IMG/VR virus record: IMGVR_UViG_3300042260_000337 | DNA length: 64,000 nt | Reading direction: 5' to 3' (one strand) | From: a virus | Lineage: Duplodnaviria; Caudoviricetes | Shown: positions 8,951 through 62,120 of the stretch, piece after piece | How positions within the stretch are numbered: position 1 is the stretch's first letter | How the letters are laid out: each line of letters begins with the position of its first letter | Made by a program: the position numbers and the translations under genes | Notes under the pieces: generated by a model | Databases searched by the model: none | Told to the model about the DNA's origin: nothing | Seen by the model: only the letters and a program-made list of their open reading frames with translations

Positions 8951-11392
8951 ATGGCGTTTGATGGATTTTTTCTCACCACTAAACAAGATGTGGATGCCAG
9001 ATCAAGATTTGAAAAAATAAAATCGCAGCTTCCAAATATAAAGATGCTTCATATTCCAAAGGATACGTGGGAAGACAATACCATGGTATCTGCGGTTGTT
9101 GAAGCAGTCCAAGAAGTCAACACTAGGTATTTTTGGGTTATAGACCCAGATGTTTTAGTTGATGACGAATTTGATTTTTCTTTTGAGCCTGATGAATGGA
9201 ATAAAGATGTTCTTCATTATTGGAACTGCGAAACTAGAAACGACACCAACCGAGTAGTTGGAATAAAACTGTATAAGACAAAAGATGTTTTTATTGGAGT
9301 TGACGAATATGTTAATAAGTCTTATTACTTAGATGTCCCTCATTTAAATCATACAACAACTCTTCCATCTTATTCACCAACAAAAGAAATATACGATGTT
9401 TTTCGTGTGAATAACATATATGACATTGAGCCATACGCAAATCAATCATACACTACTATGTTTTGGATGATTGATAACGCTGTGTCTCCATATATGAAAG
9501 ATATTGACACATTTGAGATTTCTCCATACGATCAGGGGCTTATTCATAATTTCTCTGTGAAATTACCAAATGGGTCGGTTGTTATAAATGGGATTCGACT
9601 GGTTCCAAAACGTTATGACTTGACTATGCAAAAGGACATGTATGACGTATTGGGCGATGTGGACAATGTAGAAATCGTATATGCCAGAACACCAGAAGAT
9701 GCAATTGAACTAGCTAATTCATACTCATTTTGGATGGTAAATCCAGATTTAGAATTGATAGAGCCATCTGTAATAGATGAGTTCTATCCAAACATTCATG
9801 ACCCCATATCCGCGCATGTGTATAAAATTCAATCCAAGTCAGGGAACGATTTTGGATACGGCGGTATAATGTTTTTGAATAAAAAATATAGTGCGGGTTC
9901 TATTAGTCATCTTGACCGTTTTGCAATGACAACTCCATCCGTATGCAGGGTTCCAATATATAATAGCAGGGACCACCATGATGTCTTCGTGAATAAGTCA
10001 AAAGATGATTACCTTTATTGGTATGTGGATTCAGCAATATCAACTCTTGACGAGTTCAAATACGATTTTTATCCTGATATATATAGCATGAATAATGTCT
10101 TCACTTTCAATGGTGGCGGCGGTGGGACAGGGGTTTATTTTGTAAATCGTAAGTTCTTGTCTCAGTTTGAATTGACAGAAGAAGATTTTCTTTATGACCG
10201 TTTTCAGAATCTAAAACATATTGACCAAGTGGTAAGCAAGTCTGCGTCACATCCAGTGTTTTATTTTGACGAAGGATTGTATCCAGAAAATACTAAAAAA
10301 ATCAAATCTATATCTGATATTCAGGTAATAGACTCAACTGATTTAGAAGCTGCATATGTGCAAGCTGCTACTCTTACGACCACAGGATATTTCTGGGCAA
10401 TTGATAATGATGTTGAACTGAAAGATTTCAATTTTCCAAGATCGTATTATGTTGACCGAGCAAACAAATCACACTATGTTGTGTGGCCCAAAGAGAACCC
10501 ATACACGGGTCTTGTTTACCAATATGGCGGCGTAAAGTTGTGTCCATCTGAAGCAACCCTGCATCTAAAACCAGATGCCGACAAAATTCGTAGAACCAAC
10601 TTTGCCAATAAAATTCACGTCAAAACGCCAACGGCAAGGTCGCGTGATATACCATATGATACCATATTTCTAAGTTACAATGAACCATTTGCCGATGAGA
10701 ACTACGAAAAACTATTGAAAAGAGTTCCAAATGCAAAACGTGTTCATGGCGTTAAGGGTATCTTTAATGCACACAAGAAGGCAGCGGAACTGGCAGAAAC
10801 AAAAATGTTTTATGTAGTGGACGCTGATGCCATTCTACTTGACGAGTTTGAATTTGAATACTTTCCTAACTATTGGGATGAAGACACCGTTCACACTTGG
10901 CGTTCAAAGAACCCAGTGAATGGATTGGTATATGGATATGGAGGTCTGAAACTATTTCCTACTAAACTATTGAGAAATGCAACCGATTGGAAAATTGACT
11001 TCACCACATCGGTGACCGATAAATTCAAACCCATGCAAGTGGTTGCAAACTACACTGCATTTAATACCGACCCATTCAACACTTGGAAATCCGCATTTCG
11101 TGAATGCACTAAACTAGCAGCAAACATCATTCAACGTGGTGACTCTACAGTAAACAATGAAAGACTTACTACATGGTGTGAAGTTGGTGCAGACAAACCT
11201 TTTGGCGAATACGCCATTGCGGGTGCCAAAATGGGAAAGGCACATGGAACTAAATATTCAACAAATGAAGTTGAAATTTCTAAGATAAACGATTTTGAAT
11301 GGCTAAAAGCCAAATTTGAGGAAACATACAATGACAACAGCAACAAGAGAACGCAGAGCAAGAAGAAACTCCAAAATAAAAAAGCACGATGA
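8951..11392 (+). CDS. Multi-repeat glycosyltransferase-like protein (about six degenerate DxD modules)
   Basis: Repeated F-W/Y-x-x-D-x-D...G-(I/V/L)-K-L segments; the last module (FYVVDAD...YGYGGLKLFP...WKSAFRE) looks intact. Confidence 0.6.
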   Translation: MAFDGFFLTTKQDVDARSRFEKIKSQLPNIKMLHIPKDTWEDNTMVSAVVEAVQEVNTRYFWVIDPDVLVDDEFDFSFEPDEWNKDVLHYWNCETRNDTNRVVGIKLYKTKDVFIGVDEYVNKSYYLDVPHLNHTTTLPSYSPTKEIYDVFRVNNIYDIEPYANQSYTTMFWMIDNAVSPYMKDIDTFEISPYDQGLIHNFSVKLPNGSVVINGIRLVPKRYDLTMQKDMYDVLGDVDNVEIVYARTPEDAIELANSYSFWMVNPDLELIEPSVIDEFYPNIHDPISAHVYKIQSKSGNDFGYGGIMFLNKKYSAGSISHLDRFAMTTPSVCRVPIYNSRDHHDVFVNKSKDDYLYWYVDSAISTLDEFKYDFYPDIYSMNNVFTFNGGGGGTGVYFVNRKFLSQFELTEEDFLYDRFQNLKHIDQVVSKSASHPVFYFDEGLYPENTKKIKSISDIQVIDSTDLEAAYVQAATLTTTGYFWAIDNDVELKDFNFPRSYYVDRANKSHYVVWPKENPYTGLVYQYGGVKLCPSEATLHLKPDADKIRRTNFANKIHVKTPTARSRDIPYDTIFLSYNEPFADENYEKLLKRVPNAKRVHGVKGIFNAHKKAAELAETKMFYVVDADAILLDEFEFEYFPNYWDEDTVHTWRSKNPVNGLVYGYGGLKLFPTKLLRNATDWKIDFTTSVTDKFKPMQVVANYTAFNTDPFNTWKSAFRECTKLAANIIQRGDSTVNNERLTTWCEVGADKPFGEYAIAGAKMGKAHGTKYSTNEVEISKINDFEWLKAKFEETYNDNSNKRTQSKKKLQNKKAR

Positions 11393-59827: not shown

Positions 59828-60523
59828 TTACGGGCTTTCACTCCCTGTATTCTTTTCTTTGGTCCACTGAACTATTGGATTTAAGTCTTTACCAGCCAGG
59901 GAATCTCTATTCAACTTATTTTCATAAGTGAGGGAAATCGGGCTTAAATCCTCATTAAAAAAGTGTTTACTCGTTACTTTAATCCACTCATTGAACTCTT
60001 CATCGTTTTCATACACAATCTTGTTGTGCGAAAACTTGTTACTAAACATACTCTGAACTGGTTCGTATCTAAACATACCCAACAAGAACTTTGCTTGATT
60101 GATTGCGTGTTCTTGTCTTCCGTATCTTTCGCCGTATACGGAATAGTAAGACTTTCCGCAGTCGGAACAAGTTACATATTTCTTTCTGAGTAAGTCTGAT
60201 ATTGACAGATTATACCAAAACTTTTCAATCTTGTCAAATCTTTTTCCTTGTAGAAATGCTAACGCAATCGTCAACGATCTATATTCTTGTGCAAGATAGT
60301 GATGTTTATTATTCAGGCAAGCAGCTACACCTTCGTGTCTTATACCTAACTTAGCAAGGTAATGGCCACCTTTGTTATCACTTCCAAGTTTGTGTCCATG
60401 TTCGCGTTGGTATTTGTGACCAGTTTTGTAATAGCCGCTTCTATCTTTTTTGAGTTCTTTGATTGATTTTTCCAAGAACTCTTTTCTATGTTGCAGTTTG
60501 ATTTTGGTTTCGTCAATATTCAT
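59828..60523 (-). CDS. Hypothetical protein (231 aa)
   Basis: Coupled (ATGA) to the upstream ORF; single CxxC. Confidence 0.7.
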   Translation of the reverse strand: MNIDETKIKLQHRKEFLEKSIKELKKDRSGYYKTGHKYQREHGHKLGSDNKGGHYLAKLGIRHEGVAACLNNKHHYLAQEYRSLTIALAFLQGKRFDKIEKFWYNLSISDLLRKKYVTCSDCGKSYYSVYGERYGRQEHAINQAKFLLGMFRYEPVQSMFSNKFSHNKIVYENDEEFNEWIKVTSKHFFNEDLSPISLTYENKLNRDSLAGKDLNPIVQWTKEKNTGSESP

Positions 60524-60780
60524 TTGTCTTCTCCATTTTGAATCAAAGCCTCATTGGACTCTGTAATACTAAGGTAACAGTTCTTGATTTTAATCGCACC
60601 TTTTGTGTGCGGGTTGTCAGGTGTTTCCTTAGTAGACCACCCTACTTCTGATATGACATGATTAACATAAAAGGTTTGACCTTTTGCTTTAACCACCCAC
60701 ATTGGAATAGTCGGGTCTTCAAGATGTTTTTTGTTGAAGTGAAATACTAACTCGTTGACTTTTGTTTTTTCAATCTACAT
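60520..60780 (-). CDS. Phage protein interrupted by an in-frame amber codon at position 2
   Basis: AAAGGATAAACT-ATG-TAG-ATT-GAA... continues in frame for 24 sense codons (IEKTKVNELVFHFNKKHLEDPTIP) into the tracked ORF at 60702. Confidence 0.6.
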
Positions 60781-60889
60781 AGTTTATCCTTTCTGATTGA
60801 GTAGGTTACTGACGATCTAAATGGGTATTGGCGTTAGCCGCAGGGTTTCAGGTTCCTACTCGCTACTACAAACCCTTTTTCGCTTTATT

Positions 60890-60966
60890 TGGTGGCCCTA
60901 GTGGGACTCGAACCCACGACCAATAGTTTTAGGGACTGCCGCTCTAACCAACTGAGCTACAGGGCC
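60890..60966 (-). tRNA. tRNA with CUA anticodon (amber-suppressor-like; C33, C28:A42 mismatch)
   Basis: GGCCCTG/TAGGGCC acceptor, GCTC/GAGC D arm, GCAGT-CCCTAAA-ACTAT anticodon arm, GTGGG-TTCGAGT-CCCAC T arm, A73, CCA. Confidence 0.7.
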
Positions 60967-61249: not shown

Positions 61250-61275
61250 GTCAAAATGTGATTTCATTTTGTCAA

Positions 61276-62120
61276 GGCTGAGATTATACCTTGAGGTGAG
61301 TGCCTTCGGTCATTACCCAATCCCTTGCGAGGATGGTTCTACCTTTATCCACAAGAGTCGTTTCCGATCATCTTGTATCACTCAATGCGGCCTTTGTTAG
61401 AGAGTGGCATTTCTCTCGTCGCATACTGCTATTCATCCTTCCATCTTCCGCCAGCCTTGCGGGCTGTTCAAGGTCGCTAAACCCTTACGTCTTCTGTCCG
61501 AATAATCACGTCCACCTTGCGAGTTTCAGTGAACCATATTCTCTTGCGAGTATGGTATTACGCATCTTTCACAGTATACCGAGGTAGTCTTTCGCTTTTG
61601 TTTCAATAATAGGAGTTGAACCTACAATCGTTCTCTTAGAAGGAGACTGCATTACCATTATGCAATATTGCGAACCTATTTCGATGTGCTACCTCAGTTG
61701 CACCATACCTTGTTAGATACAGTATACAACACACCGACTGTCTTTTGCCTTGCGGGCTACTCAACGTCTTTTCAAGTATCCGGGGCCTAACCCTTCCACT
61801 CTCAAGATGCTACTACGCCTTTCCTTGCAGGGTCAGACAGTGTAGCTACCTGTTAACCTTCAGTATTCGTTAGTTTGGCTGAAAACTGTTCGGACGCCAA
61901 TCCTCTTACCACTCACCGACTGGCTCTGTGGCTATCCTTTCAGACAGTTCTCCTAACTTACTACCTACCGCCTCTCTACAGACGGGACTTGCTTTCGGTT
62001 TAATCCGAGTCAAGTCTGGTTCAGGCTTGTATAGATGGACCATCACTGGCGCAAGTTTATAGGAAACCTTGCTTTGGGCGTATTACTACGCTTACCCTTA
62101 TGGACGCTATACCGCCCAAT
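61276..62120 (-). ncRNA. Large ornate ncRNA, GOLLD-like, with embedded tRNA-like domain
   Basis: About 845 nt with no plausible coding, own promoter, five C-GCAA-G tetraloops, many helices, GAGUAGCCCGCAAGGCAAAAGAC and a 3' UAAUCUCAGCC; tRNA-array context. Confidence 0.7.
61601..61672 (-). tRNA. tRNA-Arg(UCU)-like domain embedded in large ncRNA (defective acceptor end, no CCA)
   Basis: GCAT/ATGC D stem, CT-TCT-AA loop, GTAGG-TTCAACT-CCTAT T arm; top two acceptor pairs mismatched. Confidence 0.6.

What the first reader, a model, noticed from the sequence alone, without database searches (positions are those of the whole stretch)
60520..60966. CUA-anticodon tRNA directly upstream of a gene whose second codon is an in-frame amber stop
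Seen: a complete tRNA (60966-60890) has the anticodon loop CC-CUA-AA. About 110 nt downstream on the same strand lies a strong RBS (AAAGGA), then ATG-TAG, then 24 protein-like sense codons in frame with the tracked ORF at 60702, whose own Met lacks a good RBS. I found no comparable internal TAG elsewhere in the window; other genes are intact in code 11 and a few use TAG as a normal stop. Inference: this is a local suppressor-dependent expression switch rather than genome-wide recoding, in which the gene and its coupled 231-aa partner would be made only once the phage tRNA(CUA) is matured and charged. Alternatives are a start-stop element with reinitiation at ATT, a point mutation, or a slipped tRNA-Arg(CCU)/Ile2-derived pseudo-tRNA (C33 and C28:A42 are atypical).
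Basis: partly seen in the sequence, partly recalled or inferred. Interest (0 to 1): 0.9.

Follow-up and report, generated by a model that had tools for sequence, protein, structure and literature searches.

The report
Phage gene gated by amber-suppressor tRNA
A giant phage that otherwise uses the normal genetic code carries its own UAG-reading tRNA next to a small conserved gene whose second codon is UAG; about 60 diverged phage lineages keep this pairing, so the protein is probably made only when the tRNA overrides the stop.

Summary
A tRNA with anticodon CUA lies at 60890-60966 (-). It is followed 95 nt later by a Shine-Dalgarno site, then ATG-TAG-ATT, in frame with an 84-codon reading frame.

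The 24 codons after the TAG are coding. They hold the family's invariant FHFN...D...P.W motif and evolve mainly by synonymous change.

The layout is deeply conserved, so it is not a local mutation. In 61 of 65 distinct homologous loci the first in-frame upstream stop is TAG, never TAA or TGA in those 61. It sits 0-5 codons after a Shine-Dalgarno-led ATG. Only 3 loci have an ATG after the TAG. A same-strand tRNA(CUA) lies upstream in 41 of 58 loci.

The window's genome is not recoded. TAG ends 14 of 205 confident genes, and no other gene is gated.

Best reading (0.8): translation of this protein depends on amber suppression by the phage tRNA. The protein's function and the inserted residue are unknown.

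Three details are special to this clade: TAG sits directly at codon 2, the tRNA has C33, and the protein is a short one-domain form. The 231-aa neighbour is clade-specific and has its own ribosome-binding site, so it is not part of the gate.

This scan found the same module earlier on other DNA. I found no published description.

The parts
60890..60966 (-). Elongator-type tRNA with anticodon CUA (reads UAG). The anticodon loop is CCCUAAA (C33, A37, A38). It has A73 and an encoded CCA end.
   Evidence: ARAGORN and Rfam tRNA at 60.6 bits. Relatives show compensatory stem changes with an invariant loop. It is not Pyl-like: it has a 5-nt variable loop, a 5-bp anticodon stem and G18G19 in the D-loop. 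It is not initiator-like: G1-C72 is paired and the anticodon stem lacks the GGG/CCC run.
60795..60889 (-). Spacer between the tRNA 3' end and the ribosome-binding site. It has no terminator and is moderately structured. It probably belongs to one tRNA-mRNA transcript.
   Evidence: No terminator-like site was found. The fold has z = -2.1. The spacer is conserved in the clade. In other lineages the tRNA ends only 23-36 nt before the TAG.
60787..60794 (-). Shine-Dalgarno sequence AGAAAGGA, 6 nt upstream of the ATG.
   Evidence: Read from the sequence. An SD-like site precedes the ATG in 58 of 61 gated loci.
60775..60780 (-). ATG start codon (60780-60778) followed directly by the in-frame amber codon TAG (60777-60775). 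This is the gate.
   Evidence: It is conserved in all close relatives. TAG is the first in-frame upstream stop in 61 of 65 distinct family loci.
60703..60774 (-). 24 sense codons after the TAG (IEKTKVNELVFHFNKKHLEDPTIP). They contain no ATG, GTG or TTG and encode the invariant N-terminal motif of the family.
   Evidence: Alignment A1 gives invariant F11 H12 F13 N14 L18 D20 P24. In the clade, 6 codon columns vary only synonymously and 5 change the residue, the same pattern as the rest of the gene.
60520..60702 (-). The rest of the gated gene. Gene callers report only this part as a 60-aa ORF. The full product is 86 residues, counting Met and the residue inserted at UAG. The stop is TGA at 60522-60520.
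   Evidence: Homologs of 75-90 aa cover the whole length. The AlphaFold model has mean pLDDT 84.7 and is all-beta.
59828..60523 (-). Downstream 231-aa gene that overlaps the gated gene's stop (ATGA). It is clade-specific and has its own GGAG 7 nt upstream. It is a neighbour, not part of the conserved module.
   Evidence: It is found in only 7 loci, all of this clade. It gives a weak ROS/MucR zinc-finger hit (E = 0.032, below cut-off).

Best explanation
This is a two-part translational gate. The phage tRNA(CUA) and the small gene behind it are probably transcribed together. Ribosomes start at the Shine-Dalgarno-led AUG and meet UAG at once, as codon 2. If release factor 1 wins, only formyl-Met is released and nothing is made. 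If the charged phage tRNA(CUA) wins, the ribosome reads on and makes the 86-residue protein, whose conserved N-terminal motif lies entirely after the UAG and before any other start codon. Output therefore needs both the mRNA and an active suppressor tRNA. That is AND logic in the form of a feed-forward loop, and it reports how well UAG is being suppressed.

Shown here: the anatomy, the coding status of the leader, family-wide conservation of TAG specifically, linkage to the tRNA, purifying selection on the tRNA, and the absence of genome-wide recoding.

Inferred: that the tRNA is expressed, charged by a host synthetase and able to suppress; which residue it inserts; and why the protein is gated. 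Its persistent linkage to the tRNA even in TAG-less variants, and to PTH2-like genes in some jumbo phages, hints at a translation-related role.
For: (1) The tRNA is real and under selection. ARAGORN and Rfam both call it. Relatives show compensatory changes (C3-G70 to U3-A70; C28.A42 to C28-G42) with an invariant CCCUAAA loop.

(2) The leader after the TAG is translated. It holds 7 family-invariant residues, and synonymous change is at least as common as non-synonymous change.

(3) The layout is family-wide. Among 65 distinct loci the first in-frame upstream stop is TAG in 61. An ATG lies 0-5 codons before it in 60, an SD-like site is present in 58, and only 3 have an ATG between the TAG and FHFN. 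TAG to TAA is a single transition that would keep a stop, yet it is never seen.

(4) The gene is linked to the tRNA. A same-strand upstream tRNA(CUA) is present in 41 of 58 loci, and it is the only tRNA in 31 of them. Two of five further contigs have it 3-10 kb away, including the one complete 518-kb genome.

(5) The base after the TAG is A in 57 of 61 loci. The tRNA loops are CUCUAAA or UUCUAAA with A37 and A38. From my own knowledge (Bossi 1983; Yarus 1982), both are the classical contexts for efficient amber suppression.

(6) The gated gene's own stop is TAG in only 4 of 62 loci.

(7) The genome is not recoded. TAG ends 14 of 205 confident genes and there is no other gated gene.

(8) A cultured phage, Rhizobium phage RHph_I1_18, has the same unannotated gene with ATG + 4 codons + TAG, followed 12 nt after its stop by a tRNA(cta).
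Against: There is no expression, aminoacylation or proteomic evidence, and read and RNA data were not available for this window. The window's tRNA has C33 where U33 is near-universal, plus a C28.A42 mismatch and a G27.U43 pair in the anticodon stem, so it may be a weak suppressor. The isotype could not be assigned by similarity, and no phage synthetase or release factor was found on the contig. An active suppressor would also read through the 7% of phage genes that end in TAG. In 15 of the 58 loci with at least 1.5 kb of upstream sequence no tRNA(CUA) has been found yet; most of these are incomplete contigs. The codon after the TAG is usually AUU, a known weak start codon, so some reinitiation cannot be excluded.
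Confidence: 0.8

Rival explanations
1. Start-stop mini-ORF with termination and reinitiation. Ribosomes start at AUG, terminate at once at UAG, and the retained ribosome restarts at the adjacent AUU (or another near-cognate codon). The tRNA(CUA) would be irrelevant to this gene, or would only modulate it.
For: The codon after the TAG is ATT in 47 of 61 loci and ATC or ATA in 6 more. AUU is a known weak bacterial start codon (infC; my own knowledge). In three of the four TAG-less variants a normal ATG sits at the TAG position, and in the fourth it sits one codon later, so the upstream residues are dispensable.
Against: Reinitiation would work with any stop codon, yet TAA and TGA never replace the TAG in 61 lineages, although these phages end genes mostly in TAA or TGA. 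It does not explain the physical linkage to a tRNA(CUA). In 8 of 61 loci the next codon is AAA, AAG, ACT, CAC, GTT or GTA. Ile or Val at that position is equally explained by protein conservation.
Confidence: 0.08
2. The tRNA(CUA) acts as a special initiator and UAG itself is the start codon, as with engineered amber initiator tRNAs in E. coli.
For: In this clade the TAG lies 9 nt from the SD, still within initiation range. In TAG-less variants the ATG replaces the TAG.
Against: The tRNA lacks the bacterial initiator hallmarks. G1-C72 is paired and the anticodon stem has no three G-C pairs. An in-frame SD-led ATG is kept upstream of the TAG in 60 of 61 loci, which would be unnecessary. With 1-5 intervening codons the SD-to-TAG distance is too long.
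Confidence: 0.03
3. The gene is a pseudogene or carries a recent nonsense mutation, and the CUA tRNA is an unrelated or decaying tRNA.
For: The window's tRNA has atypical C33 and a stem mismatch. Gene callers see only a 60-aa remnant.
Against: The TAG is conserved across lineages down to about 55-60% protein identity, with an intact, selected reading frame on both sides. The tRNA shows compensatory evolution.
Confidence: 0.01
4. The phage is TAG-recoded (code 15) and this gene is just one of many genes with sense TAG.
For: One public gene caller translated a relative with TAG=Q.
Against: TAG terminates 14 of 205 confident genes. Reading TAG as sense merges no convincing gene pairs, and no other gene has an internal TAG with coding sequence on both sides.
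Confidence: 0.03

Closest known systems
Stop-codon-recoded phages (code 15, TAG to Gln) with phage suppressor tRNAs: crAss-like, Lak and others (Borges et al., bioRxiv 10.1101/2021.08.26.457843; Peters et al., PMC9523058)
   Same: A phage-encoded tRNA(CUA) in a standard-code host lets genes with in-frame TAG be translated. There it is proposed as a timing switch for late and lytic genes.
   Different: In those phages 26-71% of genes carry in-frame TAGs spread through the ORFs, and TAG is lost as a stop. Here the genome keeps the standard code. One small gene carries a single TAG, always within the first six codons, and it is physically linked to the tRNA. No release factor or synthetase module was found.
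'Orphan' suppressor tRNAs of cultured jumbo phages (Xanthomonas phage XacN1, PMC5852040; Ralstonia phage RsoM2USA, PMC8504454)
   Same: These are large standard-code phages with big tRNA arrays that include CUA-anticodon tRNAs.
   Different: Those authors searched only for C-terminal read-through extensions and reported that they could not identify target genes. Here a dedicated N-terminal amber-gated target is identified. I did not test whether XacN1 or RsoM2USA carry this gene family; tblastn against cultured phages hit only RHph_I1_18, Phosso and Atu_ph07.
prfB (RF2) autoregulation through an early in-frame UGA
   Same: An early in-frame stop codon in a translation-related context turns the contest between release factor and an alternative decoding event into a sensor that sets protein output.
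   Different: prfB uses +1 frameshifting and senses the level of its own product. Here the alternative event is decoding by a dedicated suppressor tRNA, and the product has no known link to termination.
Synthetic suppressor-tRNA gates (feed-forward leak dampener, PMC7969014; AND logic in Pseudomonas putida, PMC11669171)
   Same: An amber codon placed near the start of a payload gene plus a co-regulated suppressor tRNA gives AND logic and suppresses leaky expression.
   Different: Those are engineered circuits. This one is natural, ancient and widespread in phages.
Start-stop (AUG-stop) minimal ORFs in bacteria and plants
   Same: In this clade the gate is literally AUG-UAG, a start codon followed directly by a stop.
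   Different: Known start-stops act through stalling or reinitiation and are not tied to one stop codon or to a suppressor tRNA. In the wider family, 1-5 sense codons separate the ATG from the TAG.

Membership tests
Amber suppressor tRNA (elongator tRNA reading UAG) | Canonical cloverleaf detected by tRNA models | tested here: met
   ARAGORN and Rfam RF00005 at 60.6 bits.
Amber suppressor tRNA (elongator tRNA reading UAG) | Anticodon CUA at positions 34-36 of a 7-nt loop | tested here: met
   The loop is CCCUAAA between a 5-bp stem. No alternative register gives a paired stem.
Amber suppressor tRNA (elongator tRNA reading UAG) | U33 (U-turn) and a fully paired anticodon stem | tested here: not met
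   This clade has C33, and the window's copy has C28.A42. Thirty-nine of the 44 distinct family tRNAs have U33. From my recollection, Bare et al. 1983 (Nature) found U33 not essential for amber suppression.
Amber suppressor tRNA (elongator tRNA reading UAG) | The tRNA is aminoacylated and suppresses UAG in vivo | not testable with these tools
This needs tRNA-seq or acid gels, plus a reporter or mass spectrometry.
tRNA-Pyl (pyrrolysine) | Pyl-type architecture: 3-nt variable loop, 6-bp anticodon stem, small D-loop without G18G19 | tested here: not met
   The tRNA has a 5-nt variable loop (TGGTC), a 5-bp stem and a D-loop AGTTGGTTA with GG. ARAGORN's 'Pyl' label follows only from the anticodon.
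tRNA-Pyl (pyrrolysine) | pylS and pylBCD genes present | not tested
   No search for these genes was run.
Genome-wide TAG recoding (code 15) | Many genes have in-frame TAG at sense positions, and TAG is not used as a stop | tested here: not met
   TAG ends 14 of 205 confident genes. Only this gene has coding sequence on both sides of a TAG. Only about 56% of the genome is on the contig.
Bacterial initiator tRNA (reading UAG as a start) | 1:72 mismatch and three consecutive G-C pairs in the anticodon stem | tested here: not met
   G1-C72 is paired and the anticodon stem is GCAGU/ACUAU.
Termination-reinitiation / start-stop uORF | Works with any stop codon and has a restart codon next to the stop | tested here: inconclusive
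   ATT, ATC or ATA follows the TAG in 53 of 61 loci, which favours this family. But the stop is TAG in all 61 and never TAA or TGA, and the gene is linked to tRNA(CUA), which argues against it.
Conserved module 'tRNA(CUA) + amber-gated FHFN-family gene' (defined in this scan, not in the literature) | Homolog of the FHFN...WSTKETPDN domain with an SD-led ATG, 0-5 codons, an in-frame TAG and no later start codon | tested here: met
   The window has the 0-codon variant.
Conserved module 'tRNA(CUA) + amber-gated FHFN-family gene' (defined in this scan, not in the literature) | A same-strand tRNA(CUA) nearby | tested here: met
   The tRNA ends 112 nt upstream of the TAG.
PTH2-type peptidyl-tRNA hydrolase (the gated gene in related modules noted earlier in this scan) | Match to Pfam PF01981 | tested here: not met
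   The gated protein has no Pfam or PHROG match. The genome's PTH2-like gene lies elsewhere (G000:C1:21813-22214) and starts with a normal ATG.

The most novel reading that the evidence does not exclude
The module is a self-contained sensor and controller of stop-codon read-through. The gated protein would itself be an accessory factor of suppression, for example one that antagonises RF1, protects or escorts the tRNA(CUA), or handles the short peptidyl-tRNAs made at the gate. Its suppression-dependent synthesis would then close a feedback loop that sets how strongly UAG is overridden during infection. That would make it a natural, portable 'code-tuning' device and a plausible first step toward full TAG recoding in phages.
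Probability: 0.2. Interest if true: 0.92.

Novelty: new variant of a known kind. Interest (0 to 1): 0.8.

Why it matters
Suppressor tRNAs keep turning up in standard-code phages, including cultured jumbo phages, and published work states that no target genes could be identified (PMC5852040). This finding gives such tRNAs a concrete, conserved target: one gene locked by a UAG placed right after its start codon.

It would be a natural counterpart of the amber-codon gates that synthetic biologists build. It is also a possible evolutionary stepping stone between standard-code and TAG-recoded phages.

It exposes a systematic annotation error. Public gene calls for this family are N-terminally truncated, read TAG as Q, or are missing altogether.

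It can be tested at the bench now, because the cultured Rhizobium phage RHph_I1_18 carries the module.

Tried and rejected
- Megablast of the locus against GenBank phages found nothing.
- Pfam, PHROGs and ESM Atlas feature searches of the gated protein, the 231-aa neighbour and the long two-domain relatives gave no family.
- Fold searches gave no usable assignment. For the N-domain model (pLDDT 84.7) the best VIA-align Z was 3.6, to C-terminal halves of ADP-ribosyltransferases, with weak OB/IF1-like Foldseek rows; these are below the noise level. AFDB and Atlas returned only uncharacterised viral proteins.
- In the long-form model the C-terminal domain is a generic ferredoxin-like (ACT/RRM-like) fold with Z no higher than 5.6.
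- Assigning the tRNA's amino-acid identity by similarity to 121 other phage tRNAs gave scattered nearest neighbours (Thr, Arg, Gly, Trp, Lys and others), so no call was made.
- I first took the homolog starting 'MQIEK' as evidence for Gln at the TAG. I rejected this when the look-up showed it is a TAG=Q gene call.
- I tested whether the C-terminal domain of long-form relatives is encoded separately in this genome, or is the 231-aa neighbour. It is neither.
- I tested whether genes ending in TAG have unusually close back-up stops. They do not differ from genes ending in TGA.
- No RF1, GlnRS/GluRS or LysRS domains were found on the contig.
Full report
**1. What is in the sequence**

The window is the reverse complement of positions 118608-182607 of a 202,706-bp IMG/VR virus record. 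CheckV estimates the record at 56% complete, which implies a phage of roughly 360 kb. The contig carries 40 tRNA genes, 17 of them in the window.

ARAGORN finds a 77-nt tRNA with anticodon CUA at 60890-60966 on the minus strand. Rfam's tRNA model scores it 60.6 bits against a gathering score of 29.

Downstream on the same strand the order is as follows:
- a 95-nt spacer with no terminator-like site;
- AGAAAGGA at 60794-60787;
- six bases;
- ATG (60780-60778), TAG (60777-60775), ATT (60774-60772);
- 23 further sense codons without ATG, GTG or TTG;
- the Met at 60702 where ORF callers start;
- a TGA stop at 60522-60520.

The 231-aa gene at 59828-60523 overlaps that stop (ATGA), but it has its own GGAG seven bases before its ATG.

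**2. The stretch after the TAG is coding**

A search with the 84-residue read-through product found 561 proteins, mostly 75-90 aa long, and they cover the N-terminal segment. In an alignment of 23 diverse members, F11, H12, F13, N14, L18, D20 and P24 are invariant, and all lie before the called Met. A protein starting at 60702 would lack them.

Among six distinct close relatives, the 24 leader codons show 6 columns with only synonymous change and 5 with residue change. The remaining 60 codons show 21 and 15, the same pattern.

One trap: the closest 'full-length' homolog begins MQIEK, but the look-up shows that its Q is a TAG read as Gln by the gene caller. It is therefore another TAG carrier and gives no evidence for glutamine.

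**3. It is neither an assembly error nor a recent mutation**

More than 20 independently assembled contigs from JGI, ENA and Logan samples carry ATG-TAG-ATT and the tRNA, which ends 112-126 nt upstream of the TAG. They fall into at least five diverged sublineages.

The tRNA changes in a compensatory way:
- C3-G70 becomes U3-A70;
- C28.A42 becomes C28-G42;
- G27.U43 becomes G27-C43.

The loop CCCUAAA never changes.

**4. The layout is family-wide**

A scan of IMG/VR with the family alignment confirmed 339 relatives and returned the best 80. Together with the other loci this gives 65 distinct cases.

| Feature | Count |
|---|---|
| First in-frame stop upstream of the FHFN motif is TAG | 61 of 65 (TGA 3, TAA 1) |
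| ATG lies 0-5 sense codons before the TAG | 60 of 61 |
| Sense codons between ATG and TAG | 0 in 8 loci, 1 in 43, 2 in 3, 3 in 5, 5 in 1 |
| SD-like site precedes that ATG | 58 of 61 |
| ATG lies between the TAG and the conserved motif | 3 of 61 |
| Base after the TAG | A in 57, G in 3, C in 1 |
| Gene's own stop | TAA 36, TGA 22, TAG 4 |

The codons between ATG and TAG vary freely (TCA, TCG, GCA, AAA, ACG and others). The codons after the TAG change mostly at third positions (for example TAT/TAC, GCT/GCA, TGT/TGC, AAG/AAA). This shows directly that the frame after the TAG is translated.

TAG to TAA is a single transition that would preserve a stop, and it is never seen. So it is UAG specifically that is kept, not merely a stop.

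In the four TAG-less lineages a normal SD-led ATG sits at the TAG position, or one codon after it. On a tree these lineages are scattered among TAG-bearing ones and sit on long branches, so they look like independent losses.

**5. Linkage to the tRNA**

Of 58 distinct loci with at least 1.5 kb of upstream sequence, 41 have a tRNA(CUA) upstream on the same strand. In 31 of these it is the only tRNA in the 5-kb locus, and it often ends only 23-36 nt before the TAG. All four TAG-less loci also keep it.

I searched five contigs that lacked a nearby copy with an anticodon-arm/T-arm pattern. Two have a tRNA(CUA) 3.4 kb and about 10 kb away, and one of them is the only complete genome of the five (518 kb, terminal repeats).

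The 44 distinct tRNAs all encode CCA, and 38 have A73. Their loops are CUCUAAA (25), UUCUAAA (11) or CCCUAAA (5; window clade only), plus three single variants. From my own knowledge, A37 and A38, and a purine after the UAG, are the classical contexts for efficient amber suppression (Yarus 1982; Bossi 1983).

**6. The genome is not recoded**

Among 205 confident genes (at least 80 aa, good codon score), the stop codons are TAA 101, TGA 90 and TAG 14. Reading TAG as sense creates no convincing merged genes. Leaders behind TAG are no more common than leaders behind TAA or TGA. A targeted scan for SD-ATG-(0-5 codons)-TAG-ORF finds only this gene as a credible case. No RF1, GlnRS/GluRS or LysRS domain is on the contig, so charging would have to be done by a host enzyme.

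**7. What is special about this window's clade**

(a) The TAG follows the ATG directly, so the suppressor must enter the A site next to the initiator tRNA.

(b) The tRNA has C33. The homologous tRNA in the related 283-kb phage (L021) has U33, so C33 is derived.

(c) The protein is a short form. Most relatives are about 185 aa, with an extra roughly 100-residue ferredoxin-like domain and an acidic tail. That domain is not found on this contig and is not the 231-aa neighbour.

(d) The 231-aa neighbour occurs only in this clade.

Both (a) and (b) arose on one branch, so no correlation can be claimed.

**8. What the protein is**

The function is unknown. The protein has no Pfam or PHROG match. The model is confident (pLDDT 84.7) and shows a small all-beta domain with a conserved, flexible WSTKETPDN loop. 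Structural matches are below noise.

Two hints from genomic context point to translation. First, the gene stays next to tRNA(CUA) even without the TAG. Second, in Agrobacterium phage Atu_ph07 and Sinorhizobium phage Phosso the domain is fused into a 176-aa ORF in an operon behind a PTH2-like peptidyl-tRNA hydrolase gene. This genome's own PTH2-like gene (G000:C1:21813-22214) is ungated.

**9. Mechanism and rivals**

The best reading, at 0.8, is an amber-suppression gate, with AND logic between the mRNA and an active tRNA. Placing the UAG in the first six codons means that a failed attempt costs only a tiny peptide.

- Reinitiation at AUU (0.08) fits the frequent ATT. It does not explain why the stop is always TAG, or why a tRNA(CUA) travels with the gene.
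- UAG initiation by the tRNA (0.03) fails on the tRNA's elongator features and on the conserved upstream ATG.
- A pseudogene (0.01) is contradicted by the conservation, and genome-wide recoding (0.03) by the stop-codon counts.

**10. Comparison with what is known**

The closest published system is stop-codon recoding in gut phages, where suppressor tRNAs unlock many late genes. Here the code is standard and one gene is locked.

Papers on the cultured jumbo phages XacN1 and RsoM2USA note CUA tRNAs. The XacN1 authors looked for read-through extensions and state that they could not identify target genes. Four full-text searches found no description of a single-gene amber gate next to a phage suppressor tRNA.

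Earlier notes of this same scan report the same module, and a PTH2-gated sister module, on other genomes. Those are unverified AI notes. What I tested here agrees with them, and this window adds the codon-2/C33/short-form variant and a cultured carrier, Rhizobium phage RHph_I1_18, whose gated gene is unannotated in GenBank.

**11. Verdict**

The feature is real and conserved, and it is probably functional. It has not been tested experimentally. I rate it a new variant of a known kind (phage suppressor-tRNA-dependent decoding), with interest 0.8.

Noticed in passing
window 61275-61737 (-): A GOLLD RNA (Rfam RF02032, 193 bits, full length) lies about 300 nt upstream of the tRNA(CUA), with tRNA-Arg(UCU) at 61600-61672 nested inside it. 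So the gate sits in a tRNA/large-ncRNA island.
   Followed up: no
window 60209-60237 (-): A perfect sigma-70 consensus promoter (TTGACA, 17 nt, TATAAT, with an extended-10 TG) lies inside the 231-aa gene. It points toward the downstream 68-aa gene and the tRNA-Asp/Gln/Pro array.
   Followed up: no
window 60795-60889 (-): In the spacer, CCUACUC (60805-60799) can pair either with the upstream GAGUAGG or, in the minimum-energy fold, with the AUGUAG start region. This could mask or unmask the gate. The fold has z = -2.1 only.
   Followed up: partly
L104 (Rhizobium phage RHph_I1_18, MN988519.1 record 10911-11230): This cultured phage has an unannotated homolog with ATG AGT GAG TTC ATG TAG AAC..., followed 12 nt after its stop by an annotated 'tRNA-Pyl(cta)'. 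It is a ready experimental system.
   Followed up: partly
L041, L049, L059 (about 1793-2480): A roughly 220-aa ORF, possibly a homing-endonuclease-like insertion, sits just upstream of the gated gene and begins with a duplicate of the same amber leader (M-A/S-TAG-I-E-Y...). The leader seems to have been copied with the insertion.
   Followed up: no
L105 and L106 (Sinorhizobium phage Phosso; Agrobacterium phage Atu_ph07): The FHFN domain is the C-terminal part of a 176-aa ORF without a TAG, in an operon behind a PTH2-like gene. The conserved N-terminus of that PTH2-like gene lies upstream of its annotated ATG. In Atu_ph07 an in-frame TGA follows an ATG plus five codons there.
   Followed up: partly
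G000:C1:21813-22214 (outside the window): The phage's own PTH2-like gene (PF01981, 23.3 bits) starts with a normal ATG and ends in TAG.
   Followed up: partly
L021 8328-8404: ARAGORN reports a tRNA-like gene with a four-base anticodon (tgca) in the tRNA array of a related 283-kb phage.
   Followed up: no
window 496, 28510, 60303, 60318: The window differs from the stored genome record at four single bases. Two of them fall inside the 231-aa gene. They are probably ambiguity codes or population variants.
   Followed up: no
family-wide: Public gene calls for this family are systematically wrong. They are truncated to an internal Met or GTG, translated with TAG=Q, or absent.
   Followed up: yes
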